NCBI RefSeq assembly: GCF_050920415.1
Contig: NZ_CP169309.1
Direction: 5' to 3' (one strand)
Source of the DNA: Escherichia coli
GTDB lineage: Bacteria; Pseudomonadota; Gammaproteobacteria; Enterobacterales; Enterobacteriaceae
DNA: 64,000 nucleotides
Both the position numbers and the translations under genes were made by a program. Under the pieces are notes generated by a model. It was not told the origin of the DNA, searched no databases, and saw only the letters and a program-made list of their open reading frames with translations. Positions 1,998 through 59,045 of this stretch are shown here, piece by piece; the stretch's first letter is position 1; each line of letters opens with the position of its first letter.

Positions 1998-2144
1998 GCG
2001 ACTAACTTTACTCTTTTTTGTTCAGTTCAGAAAGCATTTTTTGTAATTTTTTTTCAGTTGTTGCATAGGAATTTCTAATAGCCATCACAAAACGTGACAG
2101 CTTATGTTGCTTACTTACGAAAAAAGGGCATGTTCAGGCGAATC

Positions 2145-9482: not shown

Positions 9483-9558
9483 CCCATCATCCGGAAAACA
9501 TTACGAATGATGAAGGATATCATTTCACGATGATTTTGGTGGCACCGCTTACAAGCTT

Positions 9559-24116: not shown

Positions 24117-25600
<1,484 letters not shown>

Positions 25601-35567: not shown

Positions 35568-35782
35568 AACGCCTCCAGCCTCATTACTTACCCGCACAAA
35601 ATAGAATTGTGCTGTACAAACGTCCAGTTTGAAAGAAGTTTCCTGCGAGGCGCTACGCAAAACGATCCTTAATTTTTATTATTTTATCCCACAATATGAG
35701 ACGTAGTTTATATTGTGGGATATATCACCTTTTCCCCACGTCATTATGTGGAACACTTCAGCAATATCATCAGGAGAAACGT

Positions 35783-36550
35783 ATGGCAGATACCTCTTCA
35801 ACCACCGCTGGCGCACAAACGTTATTACGCGGGCTGGCGGTTCTTAATGCTGTTTATAACGGCTGCCATGACCTGAAAAGTATCGGCGAGTTCACCGGCA
35901 CGACCCGGAGCACAACCCATCGTTTAGTCACCGTTCTGGTGGAACAACGCTACCTGCGCCACGTCCCAACGCAGGGCTACCAACTGGGCGCCAAACTGAT
36001 CGAATTCGGTGCCAGAGCGCTGGAAAGCACCTCGCTGTACGAAGTTGCGCTGCCCGTTTTGCAACGCCTTGCCCGTTACACCCTGGACACCGTGCATCTG
36101 GGGATCGTTGAAGGCGACGAAGTGCTGTATCTGGAGAAGATCAACAGCCAGCGCGGGCTGGAAATGCGCTCACGCCCAGGCCATCGCATGCCACTGGCAA
36201 TCACCGGCATCGGCAAGGCATTGATCCTCAACCGAACAGAAGAAGAGTGGCGCACGCTGTTTAAGACCTGTGGTGATGAAACAAAACTGGGCGCATTTAT
36301 TCAGAACATGCGTCGTTATGCCGCCAGTGGTTTTGCTTTTGATCTGGAAGAGAACGAGCCGACTATCCGTTGCGTTGCAGCGCCGGTTTACAACGCCCGG
36401 GATGAAATTGTGGCGGCTATTTCTGTCGCCAGTACCACTACGTATATGTCACTGGCGCGTCTGGAAGAACTGGCACCTTACGTCAAATCCTGTGCAGAAG
36501 AGATATCCGCTGAACTGGGCTGGGGTAAGCACGTTCACAAAAATAAATAA
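35783..36550 (+). CDS. IclR-family transcriptional regulator (start at MADTSS after an AGGAG RBS)
   Basis: N-terminal HTH (LLRGLAVLNAV...) followed by an IclR-type effector domain; first gene of an accessory cluster. Confidence 0.7.
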   Translation: MADTSSTTAGAQTLLRGLAVLNAVYNGCHDLKSIGEFTGTTRSTTHRLVTVLVEQRYLRHVPTQGYQLGAKLIEFGARALESTSLYEVALPVLQRLARYTLDTVHLGIVEGDEVLYLEKINSQRGLEMRSRPGHRMPLAITGIGKALILNRTEEEWRTLFKTCGDETKLGAFIQNMRRYAASGFAFDLEENEPTIRCVAAPVYNARDEIVAAISVASTTTYMSLARLEELAPYVKSCAEEISAELGWGKHVHKNK

Positions 36551-36573
36551 ACCATGACTAAAGGAAACGGCTA

Positions 36574-37578
36574 ATGTCGGGAAACACCTCATTTATTGCC
36601 CTGGACTGGGGAACGTCATCGCTTCGGGCATGGCGTTTTGGCGACTCACCCAATCCACAAGAAAAACGTGAATTCCCGTGGGGGATCATGAAATTACCCT
36701 CCCAGGCAGCAACACGTGAGGACGCTTTCCACGATACGTTTTTACGTGTCTGCGGCGACTGGCTGGCACAATCCCCATGCCCGATTCTGGCTTGCGGCAT
36801 GATCGGCAGTGCGCAAGGGTGGCAACCCGCAGCTTATTTACCTTGCCCGGTCACTCTCGAGGGTCTGGCAAAGCAGTTGACGCCTGTTATCTACCAGCAG
36901 CAGACAATGCTGCACATCATTCCCGGCGTGATTAAAGAAGGTGAAATGCCCGAAGTGATGCGTGGCGAAGAGACACAAATCTTCGGTGCTATCTCGATGG
37001 AACCGGCCCTGCAAAACGCGCTCCGCCAGGGTATGCCTGTGCTGATTGGCTTACCTGGCACACATGCGAAATGGGCGGTAGTTGAAAACAACACCATTAC
37101 CGATTTTCGAACCTTTATGACAGGCGAGTTATTTGATGTTTTATCCCGCCATTCGATTCTCGGTGCCACCATGCGTTCGGGAGATGAACCGCACTGGGAT
37201 GCCTTCGCCCACGGGCTGACAGCGGCACAAGAGCATCATCAGACCGGATTATTATCGACGCTGTTTTCGACCCGTTCGCGCCTGCTGACCAGTAATCTTA
37301 CGCCGTCCTCACAGGGGGATTACCTTTCAGGATTACTGATAGGCCATGAATTATGCGGTCTGGCATCCAGTTTGCTACGTGATTTACCCGCCACAACACC
37401 GATCGCCTTAATCGGTAGCGCCACTCTGAACAGCCGCTATTCACAAGCATTCAGCCACGTTTTTCCCGACAGACAGCTACACGCCATTCCTAATGCCACT
37501 GAACAGGGGTTATGGCGAATCGCCCACGCTGCCGGGCTACTCTCCACCAACGCCAGGGAATGTACTCATGCCATTTAA
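36574..37578 (+). CDS. 2-dehydro-3-deoxygalactonokinase-like sugar-acid kinase (DgoK family)
   Basis: Motifs IALDWGTSSLRAW, VMRGEETQIFGA, PGTHAKW, DFRTFMTGELF and LSGLLIG parallel E. coli DgoK. Confidence 0.7.
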   Translation: MSGNTSFIALDWGTSSLRAWRFGDSPNPQEKREFPWGIMKLPSQAATREDAFHDTFLRVCGDWLAQSPCPILACGMIGSAQGWQPAAYLPCPVTLEGLAKQLTPVIYQQQTMLHIIPGVIKEGEMPEVMRGEETQIFGAISMEPALQNALRQGMPVLIGLPGTHAKWAVVENNTITDFRTFMTGELFDVLSRHSILGATMRSGDEPHWDAFAHGLTAAQEHHQTGLLSTLFSTRSRLLTSNLTPSSQGDYLSGLLIGHELCGLASSLLRDLPATTPIALIGSATLNSRYSQAFSHVFPDRQLHAIPNATEQGLWRIAHAAGLLSTNARECTHAI

Positions 37579-38197
37579 TACGCTTTTGCAAAAAACCGGG
37601 TTAGTCGCCATTTTACGCGGCGTGAAACCGGATGAGATTGTCGCCATCGGTGAAAAGCTGTATGCCTCTGGATTTCGCCTGATTGAGATTCCCATGAACT
37701 CGCCGGAGCCGTTGCAAAGTATCAGTTTACTGCGCGACGCCCTGCCTAAGGACTGCCTGGTCGGAGCCGGAACTGTGCTTTCGGTGGAGCACGTCGTCGC
37801 GGTTAAAGAGGCTGGAGGCCAGATTATCGTGATGCCGCATTGCGATACTGCGGTGATCCGTCGTGCCCGTGCGCTGGGTATGTATTGTGCGCCTGGCGTC
37901 GCTACGCCCACCGAAGCTTTTGCTGCCATTGAGCATGGTGCTAATGCCATCAAGCTGTTCCCGGCTGAACAAATTACGCCTGAAGTCACCAAAGCCTGGC
38001 GTGCGGTTATTCCACAATCCGTTCCGATGTTACCGGTTGGCGGTATCACTCCGGAAACCATGGCGCGTTATCTGAGCCACGGTGCAAACGGCTTTGGTCT
38101 CGGTTCTGCGCTTTATCGCCCTGGCATGACGCCAGAGCAGGTCTATAAAAATGCAGTACTGTTTATGAACGCATGGACCAATTTAAACAACAACTAA
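37568..38197 (+). CDS. 2-dehydro-3-deoxy-6-phosphogalactonate aldolase-like (DgoA/Eda family; start at MPFNTLLQ)
   Basis: AILRGVKPDEIV..IEIPMNSPEP motifs of KDPGal/KDPG aldolases; ATG overlaps the kinase stop. Confidence 0.7.
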   Translation: MPFNTLLQKTGLVAILRGVKPDEIVAIGEKLYASGFRLIEIPMNSPEPLQSISLLRDALPKDCLVGAGTVLSVEHVVAVKEAGGQIIVMPHCDTAVIRRARALGMYCAPGVATPTEAFAAIEHGANAIKLFPAEQITPEVTKAWRAVIPQSVPMLPVGGITPETMARYLSHGANGFGLGSALYRPGMTPEQVYKNAVLFMNAWTNLNNN

Positions 38198-38221
38198 CTG
38201 ATAAATAAGGATATAAAAACA

Positions 38222-39196
38222 ATGATAAAACATCTTACCTTACCGAAAAAAATGGCTGCAATGGTACTCCTTGCCGGCGCTTCCCTCAGCACTGCGCCTG
38301 TGCAGGCGGCCTCCTACCCAACCAAACAGATCGAGTTAGTCGTACCCTACGCGGCCGGAGGCGGTACGGATCTGGTTGCCCGTGCCTTTGCTGATGCCGC
38401 CAAAAACCATTTGCCCGTCAGCATCGGGGTTATCAATAAACCTGGCGGTGGCGGCGCTATCGGCCTGAGTGAAATCGCCGCTGCCCGCCCTAACGGTTAC
38501 AAAATGGGTTTAGGCACGGTTGAACTGACCACCCTTCCCAGCCTCGGAATGGTGCGTTTTAAAACCAGCGACTTTAAACCCATTGCCCGTCTGAACGCGG
38601 ATCCGGCTGCTATCACCGTCCGTTCTGATGCGCCGTGGAATAGCTATGAAGAATTTATGACTTACGCCAAAGCGAATCCCGGAAAAGTACGCATTGGTAA
38701 CTCAGGCACCGGAGCAATCTGGCATCTGGCGGCAGCTGCACTGGAAGACAAAACGGGCGTGAAGTTTTCTCATGTCCCATATGACGGCGCAGCCCCTGCC
38801 ATTACAGGCCTGTTAGGCGGGCATATTGAAGCGGTTTCCGTAAGCCCAGGTGAAGTTATCAATCATGTGAAAGGCGGCAAGCTGAAGACACTGGTAGTGA
38901 TGGCGGATGAACATATGAAAACCATGCCTGACGTACCGACGTTAAAAGAGAAAGGCGTTGATCTCTCCATCGGCACCTGGCGCGGTCTGATCGTGTCGCA
39001 AAAAACGCCGCAGGATGTGGTTGATGTTCTGGCTAAGGCCGCAAAAGAGACGGCTGAAGAGCCTGCATTCCAGGATGCTCTGCAAAAGTTGAATCTCAAC
39101 TATGCATGGCTTGATGGTGCCAGCTTCCAGACCCAAATCAACGAACAGGAAAAGTACTTTGACGAGTTACTAACTCGGCTGGGCTTGAAAAAATAA
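38222..39196 (+). CDS. tctC: Tripartite tricarboxylate transporter substrate-binding protein (TctC/Bug family)
   Basis: 324 aa with signal peptide; Bug-family periplasmic binding protein features. Confidence 0.7.
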   Translation: MIKHLTLPKKMAAMVLLAGASLSTAPVQAASYPTKQIELVVPYAAGGGTDLVARAFADAAKNHLPVSIGVINKPGGGGAIGLSEIAAARPNGYKMGLGTVELTTLPSLGMVRFKTSDFKPIARLNADPAAITVRSDAPWNSYEEFMTYAKANPGKVRIGNSGTGAIWHLAAAALEDKTGVKFSHVPYDGAAPAITGLLGGHIEAVSVSPGEVINHVKGGKLKTLVVMADEHMKTMPDVPTLKEKGVDLSIGTWRGLIVSQKTPQDVVDVLAKAAKETAEEPAFQDALQKLNLNYAWLDGASFQTQINEQEKYFDELLTRLGLKK

Positions 39197-39212
39197 TCCC
39201 GAGGTACGGTCG

Positions 39213-39719
39213 ATGAACACAAAACAGTCTGTTGCTCAACTCGCCGTACCGCACCGCAAGCGCCTTTCATCCACTGTGGTGGTGGCGCTGTTACTTTGTG
39301 TGGTTGCTGGCGCGGTGATAATTAATGCCGCTGATTTTCCAGCAACTGCCATTGAAACGGATCCCGGTGCAAGTGCCTTCCCTACTTTCTATGCCTGCGC
39401 TCTGATTGTGCTCGCTGTCTTACTGGTGATACGCGATCTTTTGCTGGCAAAACCAGTCCCTTGCGCCAACGCACAGGAAAAACCGGCATTAAGGAAAACG
39501 GCAACAGGAATTGCGGCAACCGCGTTTTATATTGTGGCGATGAGCTACTGCGGTTATCTCATTACTACTCCTGTTTTCCTCATCGTCATTATGACGTTGA
39601 TGGGCTACAGGCGATGGGTACTCACACCGGGTATTGCGCTGCTGTTAACGGCAATCCTCTGGTTGCTGTTTGTCGAAGCGTTACAGGTGCCATTGCCTGT
39701 CGGCACATTTTTCGAATAA
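39213..39719 (+). CDS. tctB: Tripartite tricarboxylate transporter small membrane subunit (TctB-like)
   Basis: 168 aa, four predicted TM helices, located between tctC and tctA. Confidence 0.55.
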   Translation: MNTKQSVAQLAVPHRKRLSSTVVVALLLCVVAGAVIINAADFPATAIETDPGASAFPTFYACALIVLAVLLVIRDLLLAKPVPCANAQEKPALRKTATGIAATAFYIVAMSYCGYLITTPVFLIVIMTLMGYRRWVLTPGIALLLTAILWLLFVEALQVPLPVGTFFE

Positions 39720-39731
39720 CAGGGGCCTGCA

Positions 39732-41222
39732 ATGTTTGAAAGTGAACTTTTAACTCAGGGGTTTTCGACATTACTCAGTAATCCTCAGGCGCTGCTGTTT
39801 GCCACGTTTGGAGTGATGCTGGGTATTATGATTGGCGCTCTGCCTGGCCTGACAGCGACCATGGGTGTGGCGATTTTGCTGCCTTTCACCTACGGCATGG
39901 AGCCTGTTTCTGGCTTATTGATGATTTGCGGTGTCTTTTTTGGTGGTGTGTATGGTGGTTCTATCACCGCAATTTTGCTCAAAATTCCCGGTACACCTGC
40001 CGCCGCTGCCACCGCCATTGACGGATATGAGCTGACGAAGCAGGGAAAAGCCGGGCTGGCGTTAAGTGCCGCCACGTTCTCTTCTTTTAGCGGTGGAACG
40101 CTCAGCATTATCGTATTGATGTTTCTCTCTCCGGTACTTGCCAGTTGGGCGTTGAAATTTAGTGCCTCGGAGTCCTTCGCCCTGGCAACCTTCGGGCTAA
40201 GTATTATTGCCAGTATTTCCGGTGAGTCACTGATTAAAGGGCTGATTGCCGGGGTTGGCGGATTGCTGATCGCAACGATAGGCCTTGATCCAATGGGCGG
40301 TTTTCCACGCTTTACAGGTGGATTTGTGGAGCTGATGAATGTGCCATTTATCCCGGTGATGATTGGTCTGTTTGCTGCTTCAGAAGCATTCCGCTCTATG
40401 GAGCAAAACCAGCAAATTCGTCAGGGGGCGAAGGTGGCTATCGGCAGTCTGTTACTGCCCTGGCAAACACTACGCCGCATCGCATTAACCATTTTGCGCT
40501 CATCAGGATTAGGGGTTTTTATCGGCATGATCCCCGGTGCGGGGGCAGATATTGCAGCTTTTGTTGCCTATAACGAAACTCGTCGTTTCAGTAAGACGCC
40601 TGAAAACTTTGGTAAGGGTGAGATTAAGGCGGTGGCCTCCTGTGAGGCAGGCGCGAATGGCTGCACCGGTGGCGCATTGTTACCTATGCTGACGTTGGGG
40701 ATCCCAGGCGATGCGGTAACTGCCATCATGCTGGGCGCGTTAACGTTACAAGGGATGCAGCCAGGCCCACTGATGTTTACCGACCACGGCGATATGGTTT
40801 ATACGCTGTTTGTCGGCATGATCTTTTGTTACTTCATGCTGCTAGTTCTTGGACTGCTCTCTTTGAAAGTCATCGGTAACGTGGTGAAGATCCCCGGCAA
40901 TATTCTCACGCCGATGATCCTCGCGCTTTGTGTTGTTGGGACTTATGCGCTGAACAACAGCCTGTTTGATGTTGGCATTATGCTGATTGCAGGCGTGGTG
41001 GGCTATTTCATGCAAAAAGGGGGGTATCCGGCGTCACCCGTAGTGCTGGCATTGATTATGGGGCCAATGGCGGAAAGTAATTTTCGCCGTGCGCTGTCGC
41101 TTTCAGGGGGGTCACTCGACTTCCTGTATACCCGACCGATAACCCTGGCATTGCTGACTCTGGCAGCCTTTACGCTACTGACGCCAATAATACGCAAAAT
41201 TATGCGCTTACGGCGTCAGTAA
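39732..41222 (+). CDS. tctA: Tripartite tricarboxylate transporter large permease (TctA family)
   Basis: 496 aa polytopic membrane protein with glycine-rich TctA-like repeats. Confidence 0.75.
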   Translation: MFESELLTQGFSTLLSNPQALLFATFGVMLGIMIGALPGLTATMGVAILLPFTYGMEPVSGLLMICGVFFGGVYGGSITAILLKIPGTPAAAATAIDGYELTKQGKAGLALSAATFSSFSGGTLSIIVLMFLSPVLASWALKFSASESFALATFGLSIIASISGESLIKGLIAGVGGLLIATIGLDPMGGFPRFTGGFVELMNVPFIPVMIGLFAASEAFRSMEQNQQIRQGAKVAIGSLLLPWQTLRRIALTILRSSGLGVFIGMIPGAGADIAAFVAYNETRRFSKTPENFGKGEIKAVASCEAGANGCTGGALLPMLTLGIPGDAVTAIMLGALTLQGMQPGPLMFTDHGDMVYTLFVGMIFCYFMLLVLGLLSLKVIGNVVKIPGNILTPMILALCVVGTYALNNSLFDVGIMLIAGVVGYFMQKGGYPASPVVLALIMGPMAESNFRRALSLSGGSLDFLYTRPITLALLTLAAFTLLTPIIRKIMRLRRQ

Positions 41223-41276
41223 TTGATATCGCTCCCCGACGTTGGGGAGTATGAGACTGATGACAAACGCTAAATT

Positions 41277-41376
41277 GCCTGATGCGCTGCGCTTATCAGG
41301 CCTACCACAGAAATGCAATATATTGAATTTGCATGCTTTTGTAGGCCGGATAAGGCGATCACGCCGCATCCGGCAT
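41277..41376. repeat. RIP-type BIME: two inverted REP units flanking an AT-rich putative IHF-site spacer
   Basis: gcctgatgcgctgcgcttatcaggcctac ... tgcaatatattgaatttgcatg ... taggccggataaggcgatcacgccgcatccggca. Confidence 0.65.
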
Positions 41377-41407
41377 GAACAAAGCACACGTTAACAACAA
41401 TCGGAAT

Positions 41408-41440
41408 GCTCCCCGACGTTGGGGAGCGTTTTTTTATTTC
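41408..41440 (+). terminator. Hairpin plus T-run overlapping the udp 3' end; second copy of a duplicated 19 bp palindrome
   Basis: gctccccgacgttggggag followed by cgtttttttatttc; the identical hairpin also occurs at 41231-41249 just after tctA. Confidence 0.5.
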
Positions 41441-42198
41441 AGCAGACGACGCGCCGCTTCCACCACGATTTTCACCGCATGGCTTTCGGTTTGTTTCATC
41501 GTCTCAGCATTCGGGATCTCTTGCTGGGTACGATTGACGATAACGCCCGCCACCATACCCGCACGCAGGCCCTGGCTTGCACACATGGTCAGCAGGGTTG
41601 CAGATTCCATTTCATAGTTCATTACGCCCATCGCCTGCCACTCTTCCATAGAACCTTTAAAGTGACGGACTACACGACCAGAGTAAGTATCGTAACGTTC
41701 CTGACCTGGGTAGAAGGTATCAGAAGAAGCCGTCACACCAACGTGAGTGGTGGCACCAATTGACTTCGCCGCTTCAACCAGCGCGGTCGTACATTCGAAA
41801 TCTGCGACAGCCGGGAACTCCAGCGGAGCGAAGTGCAGGCTCGCGCCATCCAGACGAACAGACGCCGTGGTCACCAGCACATCACCCACATTAATATGCG
41901 GCTGGATAGCGCCCGTTGTACCGATACGCAGGAAGGTGCGAATGCCCAGCTGTGCCAGCTCTTCAACCGCAATAGAGGTAGACGGGCCGCCGATACCGGT
42001 AGAGCAGACGATAACAGGTTTACCATCCAGCTCTGCACGCCAGGTGGTGAATTCGCGGTGAGATGCCAGCTTAACCGGCTTATCCATCAGCGCGGCGATC
42101 TTTTCCACACGATCCGGGTCGCCAGGGACGATGGCAAGCGTAGCCCCTTGTAAATCGTTTTTAGTGAGGCCGAGATGAAAAACATCATACTTGGACAT
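41434..42198 (-). CDS. udp: Uridine phosphorylase (start at [10 protein letters not shown])
   Basis: About 254 aa PNP/UDP phosphorylase closely matching E. coli Udp. Confidence 0.95.
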
Positions 42199-42271
42199 AT
42201 ACAACTCCTCTGTGAATCGGTTTAGTCAGAAGAAGCAAAAAGACACTTTACCGAAGGGTTTGACATTTTTT

Positions 42272-42340
42272 CGTGACACTCATCACCTTGATGCAAATGC
42301 GTTGCATAAATTTACCCAGCAAAAGTGATGCGAATCACAT
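42272..42340 (-). promoter_or_regulatory. udp promoter region with two CRP-like dyads
   Basis: cgtgacactcatcac and agtgatgcgaatcacat resemble TGTGA-N6-TCACA; the udp promoter is known to be CRP/CytR controlled. Confidence 0.4.
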
Positions 42341-42459
42341 AAATCACTCTTCATTCTGCATGACTGCATAAAAGATGAGCCGATTCAGGCAATGTGATTT
42401 GTTGCATGCTGACTATAGTTAACATTGCGCAACATTTTTATAAGGGTACGGAGAATACC

Positions 42460-43272
42460 ATGGCAACAACACAACAATCTGGATTTGCACCTGCTGCATC
42501 ACCTCTCGCTTCGACCATCGTTCAGACCCCGGATGACGCGATTGTAGCAGGCATCACCTCTATCCCTTCACAAGGGGATAACATGCCTGCTTACCATGCC
42601 AGACCAAAGCAGAGCGATGGCCTACTACCAGTGGTCATTGTAGTGCAGGAAATTTTTGGCGTGCATGAACATATCCGCGATATTTGTCGCCGTCTGGCAC
42701 TGGAGGGGTATCTGGCTATCGCACCTGAACTTTACTTCCGCGAAGGCGATCCGAATGATTTTGCCGATATCCCTACGCTGCTTAGCGGTCTGGTAGCAAA
42801 AGTGCCTGACTCGCAAGTACTGGCCGATCTCGATCATGTCGCCAGTTGGGCGTCACGCAACGGCGGCGATGTTCATCGCTTAATGATCACCGGATTTTGC
42901 TGGGGTGGGCGCATCACCTGGCTGTATGCTGCGCATAACCCGCAACTGAAAGCGGCGGTGGCATGGTACGGCAAACTGACAGGCGATAAGTCGCTGAATT
43001 CACCGAAACAACCTGTTGATATCGCAACCGATCTTAACGCGCCGGTTCTCGGCTTGTATGGTGGTCAGGATAACAGCATTCCGCAGGAGAGCGTTGAAAC
43101 CATGCGCCAGGCGCTGCGGGCTGCTAATGCGAAAGCAGAGATTATCGTCTACCCGGATGCCGGGCATGCATTCAACGCCGATTATCGCCCGAGCTATCAT
43201 GCCGAATCTGCGAAAGATGGCTGGCAGCGAATGCTGGAGTGGTTTAAGCGGTATGGTGGGAAACGGAATTAG
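42460..43272 (+). CDS. dlhH: Dienelactone hydrolase-family protein (start at MATTQQSG)
   Basis: About 270 aa alpha/beta hydrolase with a GFCWGG nucleophile motif; position next to udp as for K-12 ysgA. Confidence 0.85.
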   Translation: MATTQQSGFAPAASPLASTIVQTPDDAIVAGITSIPSQGDNMPAYHARPKQSDGLLPVVIVVQEIFGVHEHIRDICRRLALEGYLAIAPELYFREGDPNDFADIPTLLSGLVAKVPDSQVLADLDHVASWASRNGGDVHRLMITGFCWGGRITWLYAAHNPQLKAAVAWYGKLTGDKSLNSPKQPVDIATDLNAPVLGLYGGQDNSIPQESVETMRQALRAANAKAEIIVYPDAGHAFNADYRPSYHAESAKDGWQRMLEWFKRYGGKRN

Positions 43273-43663
43273 TTTCCTCTTAGTCTATATTTGAGATGGT
43301 GAGTGAACGAATGCGTTTTGCTGCCATCTCTGTCCCCCAAAAAATAATCAGTATGAATTGATTGGAGAGCACGACTCCGCTATTTGACCTTAAGAAAGTC
43401 GGCAAGTCATAGTCATAAATGAGTCTCTTCACTGGCAGACACCTTAAAGATTTACCATCAACTCCCATTCTCAAACAAACATTAATTATTATCAACACAT
43501 TCACATTAATTATAAATTATCTCAGACCTTCCTGATAAAAAGATATTAAAGTGAAACATTTTGTTTTTCACATTTTAGTTCATCCCTATTAGGCGTAAAT
43601 AAAGGTAAAAAATAACAATACTATTTTTCTTTCACAAAAGAATTAACAAAAGGTTTTTCAAGG

Positions 43664-44062
43664 ATGAGTGATATTATTTACCTGACCATAACCGGAGAAC
43701 AACACGGATGTATTTCCTCTCGTTGTGGAACGAGCACATCAATAGGTAATCGCTGGCAGATTGGTCATGAAGATGAAATCTTCGCGTTCTCGCTCTCTAA
43801 TAGTATTACGAATACAGGAAAAGGGTCACATTTGCATGGCCTTAGTTTCTGTAAGTTGATTGACAAAAGCTCCCCGTTACTTATTAACGCTATTAACAAT
43901 AACGAGCAGTTGTTCATGGAGTTTGACTTCTATCGGATCAATAGATTTGGTCGATGGGAGAAATATTACAACATTCAACTCCGCGGCGCGCTCTTATCAG
44001 CAATCAATCACCTGTTTACGGAGAACAATCTGGATACAGAAACCATCACTGTCAGTTATTAA
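43664..44062 (+). CDS. Hcp-like type VI secretion tube protein domain (132 aa, shorter than typical Hcp)
   Basis: IYLTITGEQHGCISSRCGTSTSIGNRWQIGHEDEIFAF, IDKSSPLLINAI, FYRINRFG and ETITVSY follow the Hcp1-family pattern; RBS before the ATG; AT-rich context. Confidence 0.6.
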   Translation: MSDIIYLTITGEQHGCISSRCGTSTSIGNRWQIGHEDEIFAFSLSNSITNTGKGSHLHGLSFCKLIDKSSPLLINAINNNEQLFMEFDFYRINRFGRWEKYYNIQLRGALLSAINHLFTENNLDTETITVSY

Positions 44063-44107
44063 TATATACTCTCCAGGCATCTGATTGCTAATACTGAATT
44101 TAGTTAT

Positions 44108-44812
44108 TTGGCATTTCCCGATAACTACAATCGTCTGTTTATACCACGGCCAAAAACTAAAGATGATAATGGCCTCAAAACACTCAATAGTAAAGCTGTT
44201 GGCAGACTGCTTGCTGCTGGCGGCATATACAATGGGAATATCGAAGGATTCAGGGAAACAGCAAACAAGTTGGGGGGAGATGCACCTGCTGGTTACGATC
44301 AAGTTATGGATAACAAAGGGTTACTCATCGCTGGTGCTTCAATAGTTGCTGGAGCAGTTCTGGGGAGAATGAGACTCCCTGATTTGGAATCACTTGAGCA
44401 TTTCGGAGCCAGAGGAGCAGTATCAGGAAGACCATTTAATCCCGACCTTGCCGGTGGTCCAATAGAAAATCTGACGACAGATGGCGTAACAATCAACAGG
44501 GAAGGTATCGCTATTGTTGAAAAACACATAGCCAGATTTGGTCATGACCCTGTAAATGAAGTGATGATCAATAGACTGAAAGACATTGAGAAAGGAAAAA
44601 TCCCCCCAGAACAAGTAGATCTTAACTTCTATACTCATGAATGTCGGGAATATCAGCGTTACTGTAATCTTGGTTGGGAAACAGGACAACCTGATGGTGA
44701 CGCAGGCTATGCACTCTGGAATCATACGCATACTGCTACTCTAGAAGATTATAAACTTAAGGGAGAACTTAATGACTTATACCACCAGGATGCACTTGAC
44801 TATGATAACTGA
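44108..44812 (+). CDS. Putative toxin/effector domain protein of unknown class
   Basis: 234 codon ORF in the same frame as the Hcp-like ORF, open from the TAA at 44060-44062; no ATG or clear RBS near its 5' end; glycine-zipper-like GLLIAGASIVAGAVLG segment. Confidence 0.4.
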   Translation: MAFPDNYNRLFIPRPKTKDDNGLKTLNSKAVGRLLAAGGIYNGNIEGFRETANKLGGDAPAGYDQVMDNKGLLIAGASIVAGAVLGRMRLPDLESLEHFGARGAVSGRPFNPDLAGGPIENLTTDGVTINREGIAIVEKHIARFGHDPVNEVMINRLKDIEKGKIPPEQVDLNFYTHECREYQRYCNLGWETGQPDGDAGYALWNHTHTATLEDYKLKGELNDLYHQDALDYDN

Positions 44813-45047
44813 AACTGAAATTAACGTACTGAAAGTTATGGCTGAGAAAGATATAAACTGGAACTGGATGAATCTCGATCGCACACTATCTATAAGGCAA
44901 ATTCCAGGATTCGGTAATGTTGTTAACATTGTTAACAAATTAGCTAACGAGGGTTTGGTTATTATTGAGGATAGCGGACATAAGTCTATGCCTCACTACC
45001 ACGTTACTGAAAAGGGATACAATCTCGTGAAAAGTGAGAATAAATAA
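44802..45047 (+). CDS. Small winged-helix-like protein, candidate immunity protein or regulator
   Basis: ATG at 44802 overlaps the upstream stop (ATGATAACTGA); the ~81 aa product has an HTH-like LSIRQIPGFGNVVNIVNKLANEGLV segment. Confidence 0.4.
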   Translation: MITETEINVLKVMAEKDINWNWMNLDRTLSIRQIPGFGNVVNIVNKLANEGLVIIEDSGHKSMPHYHVTEKGYNLVKSENK

Positions 45048-45195
45048 CGTAGCGTTGATTACTGAACAAATCGCTCAGGATTATATTTTGCGAAAAAAAT
45101 GATTCGGTTATTTCTGTGTCTGAACGGCCGCAGATAGCAAAATGGCTTCCGGTGATGGAAGCCATCAGATTATTGGCAAAGTGCGTGTTGTTCAT

Positions 45196-45226
45196 GCCGG
45201 ATGCGGCGTGAACGCCTTATCTGGCC
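45196..45226. repeat. REP element
   Basis: gccggatgcggcgtgaacgccttatctggcc. Confidence 0.7.
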
Positions 45227-45333
45227 AACTAAATCTTGAAAATTCAATAAATTGAATAAATTATGTAGGCCTGGTATCAGGCAGTTTCGCCTCTTTCATC
45301 GTACTGCAATTTACAGTGACTCGTTAATACTCA

Positions 45334-47595
45334 TCATCCCCGACGCAAATTCTGCGCCGCCTGCACCATGTTCGCCAGTGCCGCGCGGGTTTCTGGCCAG
45401 CCGCGCGTTTTCAGGCCACAGTCCGGGTTGACCCACAGACGCTCTGCCGGAATGCGTTGTGCCGCTTTCTTCAGCAGGGACTCAATCCATTCCACGCTCG
45501 GTACGTTTGGCGAGTGAATGTCATAGACGCCAGGACCGATTTCATTCGGATAATCAAACTCTTCAAACGACTCCAGCAACTCCATGTCGGAACGCGAGGT
45601 TTCGATTGTGATGACGTCAGCATCCAGCGCCGCAATCGAATCCATGATGTCGTTGAACTCGCAGTAACACATGTGAGTGTGGATTTGCGTGTCATCTTTC
45701 GCTACGGCAGCGTTGATACGGAAAGCCTCCACGCCCCACTGGAGATAGGCATCCCAGTCGCTGCGACGCAGCGGTAAACCTTCGCGTAGCGCCGGTTCAT
45801 CAATCTGGATGATGCCAATTCCAGCGGCTTCCAGATCGGCCACTTCATCACGAAGCGCCAGCGCAATTTGTTTGGCGATGGTTTCACGGCTGACATCTTC
45901 ACGCGGGAACGACCAGCAGAGAATGGTCACCGGGCCAGTCAGCATCCCTTTCACCGGTTTATCAGTCAGAGATTGCGCATACTTCGCCCACTCCACGGTA
46001 ATCGGTGCCGGGCGGCTAACGTCACCAATAACAATCGGTGGCTTCACGCAGCGGGAACCGTAGCTCTGTACCCAACCGTTTTGCGTAAAGACAAAGCCAT
46101 CCAGGTGCTCGCCAAAGTATTCCACCATGTCATTACGCTCGGCCTCACCATGCACCAGCACATCCAGACCCAGACGTTCCTGCTCAACAATGGCCTGCTT
46201 GATATGTTCTGCAATGCCCGTGCGGTAGTTGTTGGCGTCGAGATTACCCTTTTTGAAATCCAGACGCAGGGTACGGATTTCTGTGGTTTGCGGGAAAGAG
46301 CCAATCGTGGTGGTCGGCCAGGCTGGCAGTTTAAAACGCGCACGCTGGGCTTCAGCACGCACTTCATAAACGTTCGCACGCTGGCTGTCCTGGGCTGTGA
46401 TCGCTGCCAGACGTTTTTCTACCGCCGGATTATGGACGCGGGTTGAGTGACGACGCGCCTGAATCGGAGCGCTCCACTCTGCCAGAGCTGCCGTGTCACC
46501 ACTGTTCAACGCATCGCGCAGCAGCGCCAGTTCATGGCATTTTTGCAGGGCGAAGGCAAACCAGCTTTTCACTTCCGCATCAAGACGCGTTTCCACACTC
46601 AGGTCGATAGGGCTGTGCAGCAATGAGCAGGAAGATGCCACCCACAAATCACGTTTGCCGACAATGTCCTTAATTTGCGCATATTTCTCGGTAAGATCGG
46701 CGCGCCAGACGTTACGACCATTGATAAGACCCGCAGACAGCAGCCAGTCAGAAGGCAGACGCTTGTGCAGTTCAGCAACGTCATCTTTACCATGTACGAG
46801 ATCGACATGCAGCCCCTGAACAGGCAGCGCAGTAATGGTGTCGAGGTTTGGCGTTACGCCTTCAAAATAGGTGGTCAGCAGCAGTTTCACCTGGCCCTGG
46901 AGCGCGTCGTAAGCGGGTTTATAGGCGTCCAGCCACGCCTGCGGCAGTTCCAGTACCAGAGCCGGTTCGTCGATCTGTACCCACTCAATGCCGCGTTTTG
47001 CCAGTTCTGCCAACACTTGCTGATAAACCGGCAGAATGTCGTTTAGCAGGCTCAGGCGATCAAACTGTTCACCTTTCACTTTACCCAGCCACAGGTAGGT
47101 AACCGGCCCCAGCAGCACGGGCTTGACCTTGTGGCCCAGCGCCAGCGCCTCGTCCACTTCCTCCAGCAGTTGCGTCCAGGTCAGTTTGAACTGTTGGCCT
47201 TTAACGAACTCCGGCACCATGTAGTGATAGTTGGTGTTAAACCATTTGGTCATTTCCGCTGCCGCCGCAGGTTCACCAGTCGGTGCACGTCCACGACCAA
47301 TACGGAACAGGGTGTCGATATCTACCGAACCATCTTTGTTCTGGTGACGCGCCGGAACGTTACCCAGCAGCAGGCTGGTGGTCAGGACATGATCGTACCA
47401 GGCAAAATCGCCCACCGGCAGCAGGTCGATACCTGCTTGCTTTTGTTGATCCCAGTGACGGGCACGTAATTCACGCCCAACCGCCAGCAGTTCTTCACGC
47501 GTGGAGTTCCCCGCCCAATAACTCTCTTGCGCTTTTTTCAGCTCGCGACGCAGGCCAACGCGAGGGAAACCGAGGGTGTGATTCAATATTGTCAT
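45334..47595 (-). CDS. metE: Cobalamin-independent methionine synthase
   Basis: 753 aa; N-terminus [29 protein letters not shown] matches MetE. Confidence 0.97.
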
Positions 47596-56416: not shown

Positions 56417-56467
56417 TAACGTAAAAGCAGGTAAACTGCTGTTACCAATTAAAAATGAGTATTCCCG

Positions 56468-57358
56468 ATGGATGCAAAACAAACGCGGCAGGGCGTATTA
56501 CTCGCTCTTGCCGCTTATTTTATTTGGGGTATTGCGCCAGCGTACTTCAAGCTGATTTACTACGTGCCCGCCGATGAGATCCTGACGCATCGCGTGATCT
56601 GGTCGTTTTTCTTTATGGTGGTGCTGATGAGCATCTGCCGCCAGTGGTCTTATTTAAAAACGCTAATTCAGACGCCACAGAAAATTTTTATGCTGGCCGT
56701 CTCTGCCGTACTGATTGGCGGCAACTGGCTACTGTTTATCTGGGCGGTGAACAATCACCATATGCTGGAAGCGAGCCTCGGTTATTTTATTAACCCACTG
56801 GTGAACATTGTGCTGGGGATGATTTTCCTCGGCGAGCGATTCCGCCGGATGCAATGGCTGGCGGTGATTCTGGCGATATGTGGTGTATTGGTCCAGCTCT
56901 GGACTTTTGGTTCGCTGCCAATCATCGCGCTGGGGCTGGCGTTTAGTTTTGCCTTCTACGGCCTGGTACGCAAGAAAATTGCCGTTGAAGCGCAAACCGG
57001 CATGTTAATCGAAACCATGTGGCTGCTGCCCGTGGCGGCGATTTACCTGTTTGCTATTGCCGACAGCTCAACCAGCCATATGGGGCAAAACCCGATGTCG
57101 CTTAATTTACTGCTGATCGCCGCCGGTATTGTCACCACCGTTCCACTGTTGTGTTTTACTGCGGCTGCGACACGCCTGCGTCTCTCAACGTTAGGCTTTT
57201 TTCAGTACATTGGCCCGACGCTGATGTTCCTGCTGGCTGTGACGTTTTATGGTGAAAAACCGGGTGCCGATAAGATGGTGACCTTCGCCTTTATTTGGGT
57301 GGCGCTGGCAATTTTTGTGATGGATGCGATTTATACGCAGCGTAGAACGTCCAAATAA
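56468..57358 (+). CDS. rarD: EamA-family transporter RarD
   Basis: 296 aa ten-TM DMT-superfamily protein. Confidence 0.9.
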   Translation: MDAKQTRQGVLLALAAYFIWGIAPAYFKLIYYVPADEILTHRVIWSFFFMVVLMSICRQWSYLKTLIQTPQKIFMLAVSAVLIGGNWLLFIWAVNNHHMLEASLGYFINPLVNIVLGMIFLGERFRRMQWLAVILAICGVLVQLWTFGSLPIIALGLAFSFAFYGLVRKKIAVEAQTGMLIETMWLLPVAAIYLFAIADSSTSHMGQNPMSLNLLLIAAGIVTTVPLLCFTAAATRLRLSTLGFFQYIGPTLMFLLAVTFYGEKPGADKMVTFAFIWVALAIFVMDAIYTQRRTSK

Positions 57359-57668
57359 AAAATAAATATATTCTGAAAAAATATGCCGACTCTTGCATGA
57401 GAGTGGGCATATTGCCATGCTGACAGGAGACTCACATAAGGAAAGGCAGAATTTCCAGACGTCGTTGTATATTTTCATTTGCTTTAATAAATTTCATTTT
57501 TGGTAAATTCAGCATTATGTTATTAGCGATGAGCAAGACCAATCATTAACCAAGTTCTCTTCAGAATGTAATGAAAAATGTGAAGTGCATTTCTTTTTTA
57601 AAATTTTTTTACCCTATTATTTCTTATCAAATTAACATTGCCCTTAATTATAAGAAAGGAGAATATAA

Positions 57669-58517
57669 ATGAACAACATATTAGGCTCATCAATTAATAT
57701 GCCCTGTACACTTTTCGAAACTATTACTTTATTCGATGATTTTTCTGCTGATGATATGCAGTATGGGGATATGGAAGAACAAGATTTTCTCTCACTCGGC
57801 TTAAGCGACATCTCTGCAAAAGTTGATCCTTACCGCCTCATTAAATACCATTTTCCTGGGCCGAATTCTACTTATGGTGCTTTTAGTGTTCCAACTTCTG
57901 GAACAAAAATATCACAAAGTGAATGTATTGATATTTTATTTGCAGAAATGAAAGATCTGGCAAAAATGTTTTCCTTTTTTGGACAATACAAAACACTCAT
58001 CCAGGATCTGATTGATCATTTTAGATATGGAAATGGCAACAGTTTCCATAGCCAGGAATTGAACTTATCTTTTCATGAACGAATAAACAAATATGATTAT
58101 AATAGCCCAATACGTGTAATCAAAGAATGTATCGAAAATGATATTTCTTCAACACCTACGATAGGATACCGGCCTCTTCTCCTACAAAAGATTAAGACCG
58201 AATTACTTTCATCAAGACTAAATAAATTCAATGATTTTAAAGATAATTTTAATGGCCTGGGAATCAGCATTCATGATATCTCAGCTCAAAAAATATCTCT
58301 TTTAAATTTTCAAAAATATCCTATGGGCTGGAGCGCTACCATTCATTTCATAGCACAAGACCACTTTGGTTTGGATGTGACTGATATAAAAAACAAGATT
58401 TACAACAAGTATAGATTTTTTCGCATATGGTTCTTTTTACAACGGCATAAAGACTTTGCTTTCAAACCTTTTTTTACCAATTTTAACACTATCGAAAGAA
58501 TCGAAAATTATCTATGA
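57669..58517 (+). CDS. Hypothetical protein (282 aa), AT-rich accessory gene
   Basis: ORF preceded by AGGAGA RBS; low-GC codon usage unlike neighbours; no family recognised. Confidence 0.45.
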   Translation: MNNILGSSINMPCTLFETITLFDDFSADDMQYGDMEEQDFLSLGLSDISAKVDPYRLIKYHFPGPNSTYGAFSVPTSGTKISQSECIDILFAEMKDLAKMFSFFGQYKTLIQDLIDHFRYGNGNSFHSQELNLSFHERINKYDYNSPIRVIKECIENDISSTPTIGYRPLLLQKIKTELLSSRLNKFNDFKDNFNGLGISIHDISAQKISLLNFQKYPMGWSATIHFIAQDHFGLDVTDIKNKIYNKYRFFRIWFFLQRHKDFAFKPFFTNFNTIERIENYL

Positions 58518-58942: not shown

Positions 58943-59045
58943 CCCAGGAAAATAAGATAGAGCGAGTGTTCAACCCGCATGACTTTGAAAAAGACAATTT
59001 TCAGCAATAAGCCGGATAAAGAACAATCTTTACCCGGCATTTATA

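What the first reader, a model, noticed from the sequence alone, without database searches (positions are those of the whole stretch)
43273..43663. About 390 bp strongly AT-rich non-coding leader upstream of the Hcp-like gene
Long A/T tracts (for example ttaattattatcaacacattcacattaattataaatta) precede the Hcp-like gene. This is typical of horizontally acquired, H-NS-silenced promoters and consistent with tight regulation of a toxin cassette. The only ORF call here (43280..43504, minus) looks spurious.
Basis: inference. Interest (0 to 1): 0.3.

Follow-up and report, generated by a model that had tools for sequence, protein, structure and literature searches.

The report
AT-rich leader of orphan Hcp-toxin cassette
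This is the AT-rich, non-coding control region of a small horizontally acquired E. coli type VI secretion toxin–immunity cassette, a kind of DNA the silencer H-NS is known to coat, so it is a real but ordinary feature, and the toxin gene it controls is broken in this strain.

Summary
Observation confirmed. Window 43273-43663 is 32.5% GC against 50.9% for the window. It is the third-lowest of 28 intergenic regions. Only the proximal part (43471-43663) is extreme, at 23.8% GC; the distal part is about 41%.

The window is E. coli chromosome. A 2.07-kb island (43263-45337, 39% GC) lies between ysgA and metE and is absent from K-12 and Sakai. It carries an orphan Hcp-ET1 effector (Hcp fused to an HNH/colicin-type DNase) and an immunity gene. 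In this strain the effector is one 1149-bp gene killed by a single nonsense change at 44060.

Only the proximal ~190 bp of the leader travels with the cassette: it is also found in B2 E. coli, in a paralogous Hcp-ET locus, and in Citrobacter. It has two conserved islands:
- a 20-nt core, TAAAGTGAAACATTTTGTTT (43547-43566);
- a region holding a perfect CpxR consensus, GTAAA-N5-GTAAA (43595-43609).

The H-NS reading has published support in the orthologue. In CFT073 ChIP-seq, the two pieces of the orthologous hcp gene and its immunity gene are H-NS/StpA-bound, at occupancy 0.35-0.58 against a cut-off of 0.07.

No Rfam hit, no stable RNA fold, no ops site and no real gene were found on either strand. 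Interest is low: this is a known kind of feature with some new regulatory detail.

The parts
43263..45337 (.). Horizontally acquired island between ysgA and metE: an orphan hcp-ET1 effector-immunity cassette (2075 bp, 39% GC). It replaces the 55-bp K-12 segment that holds the shared ysgA/metE terminator.
   Evidence: K-12 homology ends at 43262 and resumes at 45338. The island is absent from K-12 and Sakai. Annotation of a 99.96% identical strain is.
43273..43470 (+). Distal, lineage-specific part of the leader (40.9% GC). It is found only in the ysgA-adjacent E. coli/Shigella lineage and has no detectable function.
   Evidence: It is not alignable to the B2, L017 or Citrobacter leaders. No plasmid match was found. 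No terminator-like hairpin was found.
43471..43663 (+). Proximal leader that travels with the cassette (23.8% GC). It is the presumed promoter, operator and 5'UTR region of hcp-ET1.
   Evidence: It is homologous at about 71% in B2 E. coli. It is also recognisable at the paralogous locus L017 and in two Citrobacter genomes. In L017 it begins right after an upstream terminator-like hairpin. The proximal 200 bp is 23-30% GC in every lineage.
43547..43566 (+). Most conserved core of the leader, TAAAGTGAAACATTTTGTTT. It contains the imperfect palindrome or weak hairpin TAAAGTG-AAA-CATTTTG. Its binding factor or function is unknown.
   Evidence: This is the conservation peak in five independently found lineages, with 10 of 15 positions invariant. 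In 8 sequences, 98% of cells stay paired, but only through one-sided changes. The hairpin folds at only -1.6 kcal/mol. It occurs at one place per E. coli genome.
43595..43609 (+). Perfect CpxR consensus GTAAATAAAGGTAAA (GTAAA-N5-GTAAA). It lies 55-69 bp upstream of the ATG, in the same orientation as the gene, within the second conservation peak.
   Evidence: There are 2 perfect matches in the 64-kb window against 0.06 expected. In local dinucleotide shuffles of the leader p is about 0.002. It lies in the second conservation peak, 43589-43608. It is perfect in the ysgA lineage, has 1 mismatch in B2, keeps only the first half-site in L017, and is degenerate in Citrobacter. As an internal control, the same pattern with 1 mismatch hits upstream of srkA-dsbA at 9548-9562; I recall this as the known Cpx site, which was not checked here.
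43607..43612 (+). Poly(A) tract whose length differs between strains (A6 here, A7 to A9 in other strains). It sits at the 3' end of the CpxR-like box.
   Evidence: Alignment of seven ysgA-lineage leaders.
43664..44812 (+). hcp-ET1 (tssD fused to an HNH/colicin-type DNase): one 1149-bp gene inactivated by an in-frame nonsense codon (GAA to TAA) at 44060-44062. The 132-aa 'Hcp-like' ORF and the 234-aa ORF at 44108-44812 are its two halves.
   Evidence: It is colinear and in frame with the intact 382-aa TssD of L010, with no indels and T for G at 44060. Pfam T6SS_HCP matches residues 6-135. Residues 249-378 are about 47% identical to S-type pyocin/colicin nuclease domains. PGAP annotates 'internal stop' and 'HNH endonuclease'.
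44802..45047 (+). Putative cognate immunity gene (81 aa, overlapping the end of hcp-ET1), presumably co-transcribed from the leader.
   Evidence: PGAP CDS WP_000627422.1 in the near-identical strain. The position matches the immunity genes of Hcp-ET cassettes (10.1101/2024.03.05.583533). No Pfam hit for the overlapping 91-aa ORF 44772-45047.
43280..43504 (-). Spurious ORF (74 aa, GTG start).
   Evidence: No Pfam hit. Never annotated in the RefSeq genomes listed for the leader match. Truncated by a stop in L010-L012, and most differences between strains change the amino acid. Public data hold only 'hypothetical, partial' calls in E. coli and Shigella. Absent from the other cassette lineages.
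42460..43272 (+). ysgA (dienelactone hydrolase), the upstream host gene. Its last codons are rewritten by the island junction, and it has lost the K-12 terminator.
   Evidence: Pfam DLH, E = 2e-76. Junction comparison with K-12. No terminator-like site between ysgA and hcp.

Best explanation
The interval is the non-coding upstream region of a horizontally acquired, orphan type VI secretion effector-immunity cassette (hcp-ET1 plus immunity gene) inserted between ysgA and metE.

Only its proximal ~190 bp (43471-43663, 24% GC) belongs to the cassette. This part must hold the cassette's own promoter, operator sites and short 5'UTR. The distal ~200 bp is lineage-specific filler.

Most likely mechanism:
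- Under ordinary growth the AT-rich leader and the AT-rich gene body are coated by an H-NS/StpA filament that keeps transcription low. This is shown for the CFT073 orthologue and inferred for this strain.
- Expression needs a specific factor acting on the two conserved islands of the leader. One is the 20-nt core at 43547-43566, whose factor is unknown. The other is the CpxR-type box at 43595-43609. This step is inferred.
- The inferred model is Cpx-dependent counter-silencing, like that reported for the T6SS2 hcp2B promoter. T6SS2 is the system reported to deliver Hcp-ET1.

In this strain the toxin gene is a nonsense pseudogene. The only useful product the leader can still drive is the downstream immunity gene.
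For: **Shown**
- The region is AT-rich and non-coding.
- The island is accessory and its boundaries are defined.
- The gene is Hcp plus an HNH/colicin-type DNase with a single nonsense change.
- The proximal leader is conserved and AT-rich in five independently found lineages.
- In L017 the conserved leader starts directly after an upstream terminator-like hairpin, so a promoter must lie inside it.
- There are two conservation peaks.
- The CpxR consensus is perfect and unlikely by chance. The same pattern with one mismatch also hits upstream of srkA-dsbA in this window.

**From the literature**
- The CFT073 orthologous genes hcp_2, c4755 and c4754 are H-NS- and StpA-bound. Occupancy is 0.35-0.58 against a 0.07 cut-off and is lost in the hns stpA double mutant (PMC9765446; locus identity).
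- The paralogous orphan Hcp-ET c0132 is H-NS bound with weak RNAP.
- H-NS represses T6SS2 hcp2A, hcp2B and clpV2 in APEC (PMC5874247).
- Phosphorylated CpxR binds the hcp2B promoter (PMC6534853).
- Hcp-ET1 is delivered by T6SS2 (PMC6099711 and PMC6730261).
- An Hcp family with a nuclease GO term, which I infer to be Hcp-ET1, is on the same list as T6SS genes that are more highly expressed in HUS-associated than in non-HUS STEC transcriptomes (PMC6033998).
Against: - There are no H-NS data for this strain or for the leader itself; the ChIP values are per gene.
- No match to the H-NS high-affinity motif TCGATAAATT (at most 2 mismatches) lies in the leader, although the window holds 87 such matches.
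- A-tract phasing is not significant (p = 0.07 to 0.41).
- No canonical sigma-70 promoter is conserved in register across lineages, and the transcription start is unknown. The position of the CpxR box relative to the promoter, and so whether it would activate or repress, cannot be stated.
- The CpxR box is perfect only in the ysgA lineage and degenerate in Citrobacter.
- I compared several factor consensus sequences by eye, so the nominal p of about 0.002 should be discounted roughly ten-fold.
- Because ysgA has no terminator, read-through could contribute to transcription.
Confidence: 0.7

Rival explanations
1. The AT-richness is purely compositional. The leader is as AT-rich as intergenic DNA of a ~40% GC donor would be, and it carries an ordinary constitutive promoter. 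H-NS binding, if any, is incidental and not regulatory.
For: - The whole leader is about 8.5 GC points below the island's coding sequence, the same gap as between host intergenic and bulk DNA.
- No H-NS high-affinity motif was found.
- Curvature periodicity is not significant.
Against: - The proximal 190 bp is about 17 points below the island's coding GC.
- The orthologous genes in CFT073 are among the H-NS/StpA-bound set, at up to 0.58 of maximal occupancy.
- A paralogous cassette is bound and has weak RNAP signal.
Confidence: 0.12
2. The leader is mainly a Cpx-regulated promoter. CpxR binding at 43595-43609 is the principal control, as activator or repressor, tying the cassette to envelope stress. 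H-NS plays only a minor role.
For: - The consensus is perfect and improbable by chance.
- It lies in the second conservation peak.
- Its orientation and distance from the start codon resemble the one-mismatch hit upstream of srkA-dsbA in the same window.
- CpxR directly controls T6SS2 hcp2B (PMC6534853).
Against: - The second half-site is lost outside the ysgA lineage.
- The transcription start is unknown.
- The match was noticed after trying several consensus sequences.
- Strong H-NS/StpA occupancy of the orthologue argues that silencing dominates in laboratory conditions.
Confidence: 0.2
3. The conserved core acts at the RNA level. It would be a small hairpin, a regulatory 5'UTR element or an upstream mini-ORF (GTG/ATG-AAA-CAT/CGT-TTT-...) that controls translation or stability of the hcp-ET mRNA.
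For: - The hairpin TAAAGTG-AAA-CATTTTG stays pairable in 98% of cells across 8 sequences; all but one stem substitution toggles between G-U and Watson-Crick pairs.
- A start codon (GTG or ATG) followed by AAA is kept in four of five lineages.
Against: - No Rfam hit.
- Fold z-score is -0.82. Consensus fold energy is -3.2 kcal/mol with no compensatory pairs. The hairpin is only -1.6 kcal/mol.
- The mini-ORF has no Shine-Dalgarno sequence and varies from 8 to 22 codons.
- The mini-ORF is abolished in L017 (GTG TAA), and its substitutions are not at wobble positions.
Confidence: 0.06
4. The cassette is decaying in this strain and the leader is a functionless relic. Any transcription of the region is read-through from ysgA, which lost its terminator when the island inserted.
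For: - The toxin gene has a nonsense codon.
- Relatives carry an IS2 insertion or other internal stops.
- No terminator-like site lies between ysgA and hcp.
Against: - The leader is 96-100% conserved in 385 genomes, including strains with intact genes.
- The core and the CpxR box are intact here.
- The immunity gene is intact and still needs a promoter.
Confidence: 0.1
5. The minus-strand ORF 43280-43504 is a real small gene, and the 'leader' is partly coding.
For: The frame stays open for 62-95 codons in seven strains. Gene callers have occasionally called it.
Against: - No Pfam family.
- The start is not conserved, and L010-L012 have a stop at 43471.
- Most differences between strains change the amino acid.
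- Never annotated by PGAP in the RefSeq genomes listed for the leader match.
- The sequence is absent from all other cassette lineages.
Confidence: 0.03

Closest known systems
H-NS/StpA-silenced xenogeneic AT-rich DNA in E. coli (for example the CFT073 H-NS/StpA filaments of PMC9765446)
   Same: - It is accessory DNA about 12 GC points below the host, with a very AT-rich upstream region.
- The orthologous cassette in CFT073 is H-NS- and StpA-bound, and a paralogous Hcp-ET cassette is bound with weak RNAP.
   Different: - Binding has not been measured in this strain or on the leader itself.
- There is no high-affinity nucleation motif.
- There is no ops site, so the RfaH route of counter-silencing described in that paper does not apply.
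Hcp-ET1 effector / ETi1 immunity cassette of E. coli (Ma et al. 2017, as summarised in PMC6730261, PMC6099711 and 10.1101/2024.03.05.583533)
   Same: An orphan hcp outside any T6SS cluster, with an Hcp domain fused to an HNH/colicin-type DNase, followed by a small immunity gene.
   Different: - Here the effector is a nonsense pseudogene.
- The upstream leader, its conserved core and its CpxR-type box are not described in any paper I could read. The primary paper is not in the library.
T6SS2 hcp2B promoter of avian pathogenic E. coli (repressed by H-NS, bound by CpxR-P; PMC5874247, PMC6534853)
   Same: It is also the AT-rich upstream region of an hcp gene of the T6SS2 system with a GTAAA-N(4-8)-GTAAA box, and dual H-NS/Cpx control is plausible.
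   Different: - I did not obtain the hcp2B promoter sequence, so no sequence comparison was made. A BLAST of the 45-nt core found no second copy in any complete E. coli genome.
- Regulation of this leader is untested.
- The gene here is an effector fusion, not a plain tube protein.

Membership tests
H-NS-silenced horizontally acquired promoter region | AT content clearly above the host genome | tested here: met
   32.5% GC (proximal part 23.8%) against 50.9% for the window. This is the 1.3rd percentile of same-size windows and third lowest of 28 intergenic regions.
H-NS-silenced horizontally acquired promoter region | Belongs to accessory, horizontally acquired DNA | tested here: met
   The island is absent from K-12 and Sakai and its junctions are mapped. 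It is present in 385 plus 461 of 5426 genomes. Cassette relatives occur in Citrobacter.
H-NS-silenced horizontally acquired promoter region | H-NS occupancy in vivo (ChIP) | tested here: inconclusive
   Met for the CFT073 orthologue at gene level: hcp_2 0.58, c4755 0.35, c4754 0.45, against a cut-off of 0.07 (PMC9765446). No data exist for this strain, for the ysgA-lineage allele, or for the leader interval itself.
H-NS-silenced horizontally acquired promoter region | Derepression of the downstream genes when hns (and stpA) is removed | not testable with these tools
   No expression data for this cassette in hns mutants were found. The stored per-gene RNAP table is cut before this locus.
H-NS-silenced horizontally acquired promoter region | High-affinity nucleation motif (TCGATAAATT-like) or intrinsic curvature. 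These are supportive features, not obligatory ones. | tested here: not met
   No match with at most 2 mismatches lies inside 43273-43663, although the window has 87. AA/TT periodicity is not significant.
Hcp-ET1 effector-immunity cassette | N-terminal Hcp (TssD) domain | tested here: met
   Pfam T6SS_HCP, E = 5e-14, residues 6-135 of the intact relative. The window gene is colinear with it.
Hcp-ET1 effector-immunity cassette | C-terminal HNH/colicin-type DNase toxin domain | tested here: met
   Residues 249-378 are about 47% identical to plasmid-borne nuclease domains annotated mostly as S-type pyocin (two as colicin-like tRNase). PGAP names it 'HNH endonuclease' or 'colicin'. Pfam itself gave no C-terminal hit at E of 0.01 or better.
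Hcp-ET1 effector-immunity cassette | Intact effector reading frame | tested here: not met
   In-frame TAA at 44060-44062, where the intact gene has GAA. PGAP annotates 'internal stop' in the near-identical strain.
Hcp-ET1 effector-immunity cassette | Small immunity gene immediately downstream | tested here: met
   An 81-aa ORF at 44802-45047 overlaps the effector stop. Its immunity function was not tested.
CpxR-regulated promoter | GTAAA-N5-GTAAA box | tested here: met
   Perfect match at 43595-43609. Local-shuffle p is about 0.002 before correction for the several consensus sequences tried.
CpxR-regulated promoter | Box placed at a suitable distance upstream of a mapped transcription start | not testable with these tools
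   The transcription start is unknown, and no conserved canonical promoter was found.
CpxR-regulated promoter | Box conserved in orthologous leaders | tested here: inconclusive
   Perfect in seven ysgA-lineage strains, one mismatch in B2, first half-site only in L017, degenerate in Citrobacter.
CpxR-regulated promoter | Binding of phosphorylated CpxR and Cpx-dependent expression | not testable with these tools
   Needs EMSA or footprinting and reporter assays.
Known structured RNA or sRNA (Rfam) | Match to a curated covariance model, or a significantly stable or covarying fold | tested here: not met
   No Rfam hit in the leader at E of 1 or better. Fold z = -0.82. No compensatory pairs.
RfaH-dependent (ops) leader | ops element GGCGGTAGnnTG in the 5' leader | tested here: not met
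   No match with at most 2 mismatches inside 43273-43663.

The most novel reading that the evidence does not exclude
The conserved ~190-bp leader would be a dedicated counter-silencing switch for orphan Hcp-toxin cassettes.
- H-NS/StpA would keep the cassette off.
- Envelope damage, for example from a neighbour's T6SS or other attack, would activate CpxR at the GTAAA-N5-GTAAA box.
- A still unidentified factor would act on the invariant 20-nt core TAAAGTGAAACATTTTGTTT.
- Together they would switch on toxin and immunity as a retaliatory response.

In that case the core would be a new operator shared by Escherichia and Citrobacter Hcp-ET cassettes.
Probability: 0.1. Interest if true: 0.5.

Novelty: new member of a known kind. 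Interest (0 to 1): 0.2.

Why it matters
The significance is modest. The finding adds one more well-documented example of an AT-rich, H-NS-type silenced control region in front of a horizontally acquired weapon gene.

It also corrects the picture of the locus. The 'Hcp-like gene' and the ORF after it are one Hcp-DNase effector gene killed by a single nonsense mutation, with its immunity gene retained.

The useful new details are the exact extent of the portable leader (~190 bp), its invariant 20-nt core, and a perfect CpxR box. Together they give concrete, cheap targets for anyone studying how orphan T6SS effector cassettes are switched on. No open question is resolved.

Tried and rejected
- **Rfam**, permissive search of 42000-46000: the only hits are two sub-threshold ones, which I read as REP-like, at 45190-45272, outside the leader.
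- **RNA structure:** single-sequence fold z = -0.82. The alignment fold is -3.2 kcal/mol with no compensatory pairs. The small core hairpin is only -1.6 kcal/mol.
- **Canonical sigma-70 promoter:** the consensus scan and my own hexamer-score scan found no candidate conserved in register across lineages. By eye I also considered and rejected sigma-54, sigma-E and sigma-28 (TAAAGT as a -35; the -10 is not conserved in this lineage), and Fur, OmpR, PhoP, KdgR, Cra, PurR and IHF sites. These comparisons rest on memory, are not tests, and none was convincing.
- **H-NS high-affinity motif and A-tract phasing:** negative.
- **RfaH ops element:** absent.
- **Intrinsic terminator between ysgA and hcp:** none found.
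- **Minus-strand ORF and small plus-strand ORFs:** no support.
- **Plasmid origin of the leader:** no match.
- **Second copies of the core elsewhere in E. coli genomes:** none at BLAST sensitivity.
- **Metagenome scan with the degenerate 20-mer:** at least 120 hits, mostly chance matches in unrelated environmental contigs. Eleven carried an Hcp-ET relative, and those are circular evidence for the core itself.
- **The primary Hcp-ET paper** (Ma et al. 2017) is not held in the library.
- **The per-gene RNAP/H-NS table for CFT073** is truncated before this locus. Only the list of H-NS-bound genes could be used.
Full report
**1. The observation**

The interval 43273-43663 runs exactly from the ysgA stop codon to the ATG of the hcp gene.
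- It is 32.5% GC, against 50.9% for the window. Only 1.3% of all 391-bp windows are as low.
- Among 28 annotated intergenic regions of at least 80 bp (mean GC 42.6%) it ranks third lowest.
- The AT-richness is uneven. 43273-43470 is 40.9% GC and 43471-43663 is 23.8%.
- TpA steps are 1.76 times the window frequency.

About half of the GC deficit is what any intergenic region of a ~40% GC island would show. The proximal 190 bp goes well beyond that.

**2. What the locus is**

The window is E. coli chromosome. It is 99.96% identical to strain MFDS1022581, apart from an IS2 that strain carries inside the hcp gene.

Island boundaries:
- Homology to K-12 ends at 43262, inside the last codons of ysgA, and resumes at 45338, at the metE stop.
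- K-12 and O157 Sakai have only 39 bp, with a shared terminator hairpin, between the two genes.
- The 2075-bp island is 39% GC.

Gene content:
- The island carries an orphan tssD/hcp gene fused to a C-terminal nuclease, followed by a small ORF.
- Pfam finds T6SS_HCP at residues 6-135.
- Residues 249-378 are about 47% identical to S-type pyocin/colicin nuclease domains. PGAP calls this part 'HNH endonuclease' or 'colicin'.
- This matches the published Hcp-ET1/ETi1 cassette, an orphan T6SS effector-immunity pair reported to be delivered by T6SS2 (PMC6730261, PMC6099711, 10.1101/2024.03.05.583533).

State of the gene in this window:
- Against the intact 382-aa gene of strain WP4-S18-ESBL-07, the window gene (43664-44812) has no indels.
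- It has a single in-frame GAA to TAA change at 44060.
- The 81-aa putative immunity gene (44802-45047) is intact.
- Independent inactivation is common in relatives: W98* in CFT073, an internal stop in strain 2002-3211, and IS2 in MFDS1022581.

**3. Anatomy of the leader**

Distribution of the leader:
- The full 391 bp occurs at 95% identity or better in 385 of 5426 complete E. coli genomes, always between ysgA and the hcp gene.
- In 461 further genomes (B2 strains such as CFT073 and UTI89), only the part corresponding to 43471-43663 is homologous, at about 71%. It lies in front of the same cassette next to metE, but a different island (hxlB-ptsG-tkt) lies to the left.
- The same proximal leader is recognisable at a paralogous Hcp-ET locus (L017, 74% protein identity) and in two Citrobacter genomes found through the protein.
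- In L017 the shared leader begins directly after an upstream terminator-like hairpin, so the cassette's promoter must lie within these ~190 bp.
- The proximal 200 bp is 23-30% GC in every lineage.
- The distal 200 bp is lineage-specific and matches nothing else.

Conserved elements, from the five independently found lineages:
- **Core (peak at 43524-43573).** The core is TAAAGTGAAACATTTTGTTT (43547-43566). It forms an imperfect palindrome, TAAAGTG-AAA-CATTTTG.
  - All but one substitution in its stem toggles between G-U and Watson-Crick pairs. No pair changes on both sides, and the hairpin is worth only -1.6 kcal/mol.
  - An RNA role is therefore unproven, and a protein-binding DNA site is at least as likely.
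- **CpxR-type box (peak at 43589-43608).** This peak contains GTAAATAAAGGTAAA (43595-43609), a perfect CpxR consensus GTAAA-N5-GTAAA.
  - There are two perfect matches in the window against 0.06 expected.
  - In dinucleotide shuffles of the leader itself p is about 0.002. This needs a roughly ten-fold discount because I compared several consensus sequences.
  - As an internal control, the same pattern with one mismatch hits upstream of srkA-dsbA at 9548-9562. From memory this is the known Cpx site; I did not check that here.
  - The box is perfect in all seven ysgA-lineage strains sampled, has one mismatch in B2, keeps only the first half-site in L017, and is degenerate in Citrobacter.
- **Poly(A) tract.** A tract at the 3' end of the box varies from A6 to A9 between strains.

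Negative results:
- No Rfam hit.
- No stable fold, z = -0.82.
- No sigma-70 promoter conserved in register.
- No intrinsic terminator after ysgA.
- No ops element.
- The minus-strand ORF 43280-43504 has no family, no conserved start, a stop in some strains and mostly amino-acid-changing differences.

**4. H-NS**

Sequence alone gives only the generic argument: AT-rich, TpA-rich, foreign DNA. The specific indicators are negative. There is no TCGATAAATT-like site with at most 2 mismatches, and no significant A-tract phasing.

The decisive evidence comes from published ChIP-seq in UPEC CFT073 (PMC9765446, Data set S1).
- The sheet of H-NS-bound genes lists, in chromosomal order: c4738, c4739, rarD, c4754 (258 nt), c4755 (690 nt), hcp_2 (294 nt), c4760, c4761, dsbA.
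- The lengths identify hcp_2 and c4755 as the two pieces of the CFT073 tssD pseudogene next to metE, which has a stop after codon 97 (294 nt with the stop). c4754 is the 258-nt downstream ORF.

| CFT073 gene | WT H-NS occupancy (scale 0-1, cut-off 0.07) | WT StpA occupancy | H-NS occupancy in hns stpA double mutant |
|---|---|---|---|
| hcp_2 | 0.58 | 0.52 | 0.04 |
| c4755 | 0.35 | 0.31 | 0.03 |
| c4754 | 0.45 | 0.41 | 0.02 |

(Values.)

- The strongest signal is on the piece next to the leader.
- A second, non-homologous orphan Hcp-ET cassette in CFT073 (c0132, next to aroP) has an H-NS IP/input of 20.6 and is classed 'H-NS bound, RNAP weak'.
- In APEC, H-NS represses T6SS2 hcp2A, hcp2B and clpV2 (PMC5874247).

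The H-NS interpretation therefore holds for the orthologue. By homology and composition it very probably holds here, but it has not been measured on this allele or on the leader interval itself.

**5. Most likely mechanism**

- An H-NS/StpA filament covers the AT-rich leader and gene body and keeps the cassette nearly silent in ordinary culture. This is shown in the orthologue and inferred here.
- Expression requires a factor acting on the conserved islands. This is inferred.
- The best candidate is CpxR. The box is perfect. CpxR-P binds the promoter of hcp2B, another T6SS2 hcp gene that is also H-NS-repressed (PMC6534853). An Hcp family with a nuclease GO term is more highly expressed, together with T6SS genes, in HUS-associated than in non-HUS STEC strains (PMC6033998).
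- The transcription start is unknown, so I cannot say whether the box would activate or repress. The factor for the 20-nt core is also unknown.
- In this strain the only intact product is the immunity protein, which would explain why the leader is still intact.

The rivals are scored in the structured fields: pure composition, Cpx as the main control, an RNA element or mini-ORF, a relic transcribed by read-through from ysgA, and a real minus-strand gene.

**6. Comparison with what is known, and novelty**

- The cassette is a member of the Hcp-ET1 family, but an inactivated one. The Hcp domain, the nuclease domain and the immunity gene are present; the intact-frame criterion is not met.
- The leader works like other xenogeneic, H-NS-silenced promoter regions. 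The composition and acquisition criteria are met. The ChIP criterion is met only for the orthologue. Derepression is untested.
- It is not an RfaH/ops leader and not a known RNA family.
- Nothing here is a new kind of feature. The new details are the extent of the portable leader, its invariant core and the CpxR box.

**7. Verdict**

It is an ordinary feature of a known kind, and I score interest at 0.2.

Noticed in passing
window 43664-44812 (stop at 44060-44062): The 132-aa 'Hcp-like' ORF and the 234-aa ORF at 44108-44812 are one 1149-bp hcp-ET1 gene. It is interrupted by a single in-frame GAA to TAA change, with no indels relative to the intact 382-aa gene.
   Followed up: yes
window 43255-43280 and 45334-45340, versus K-12 L003 2816-2854: The island replaced the bidirectional ysgA/metE terminator of K-12 and rewrote the last codons of ysgA (…YGGKRN* instead of …YGGKKSL*). 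A 7-bp inverted repeat, GGGAAAC-N7-GTTTCCT (43258-43278), sits across the left junction.
   Followed up: partly
L004 (CFT073), L011, L001, window: The hcp-ET gene has been inactivated independently several times: E133* here, W98* in CFT073, another internal stop in strain 2002-3211, and an IS2 insertion in MFDS1022581. The downstream immunity ORFs stay intact.
   Followed up: partly
L002 3892-5599 versus L010 2594-3977: The same leader and Hcp domain carry two different C-terminal toxin tails. One is 377 aa and is followed by two downstream small ORFs; the other is 382 aa with one 246-bp ORF. The window has the second type.
   Followed up: partly
window 57236-59091: A second low-GC islet (32-33% GC) lies between rarD and corA. 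It encodes a YPO3983-family protein and a DUF943 protein. Its likely CFT073 counterparts, c4738 and c4739 (matched by gene length and chromosomal order), are among the most strongly H-NS/StpA-bound genes nearby, at occupancy 0.63-0.64.
   Followed up: partly
window 35568-41433: There is a roughly 5.9-kb insertion between rmuC and udp that is absent from K-12, Sakai and strain 7/2. It carries an IclR regulator, a 2-dehydro-3-deoxygalactonokinase, a KDPGal aldolase and a TctCBA-type tripartite tricarboxylate transporter.
   Followed up: no
window 56421-56435 and 9548-9562: The only other perfect GTAAA-N5-GTAAA in the window lies just upstream of rarD, which is not a Cpx regulon member that I know of. 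A one-mismatch match sits upstream of srkA-dsbA, which I recall as a known Cpx-regulated promoter.
   Followed up: no
window 45190-45272: Two sub-threshold Rfam hits (naRNA4 and ES036), which I read as REP-derived, lie in the spacer between the immunity gene and metE.
   Followed up: no
window 43607-43612: The poly(A) tract next to the CpxR-like box varies in length between strains (A6, A7, A8, A9). This changes the spacing to whatever lies downstream.
   Followed up: partly
window 43551-43592 and aligned positions in L004, L008, L009, L127, L106, L087, L028: A mini-ORF starts inside the conserved core (GTG or ATG, then AAA CAT/CGT TTT ...). It is 8-22 codons long in most lineages, lacks a Shine-Dalgarno sequence, and is abolished in L017. 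It is probably not functional.
   Followed up: partly
window 24274-25253: An IS621-family (IS110-like) transposase pseudogene lies between fadA and fre.
   Followed up: no
L006 2681-3909: In strain 21AH126 an IS3-family element has inserted about 27 bp into the distal leader, between ysgA and the conserved proximal part. The proximal leader and an intact hcp-ET are left untouched.
   Followed up: no
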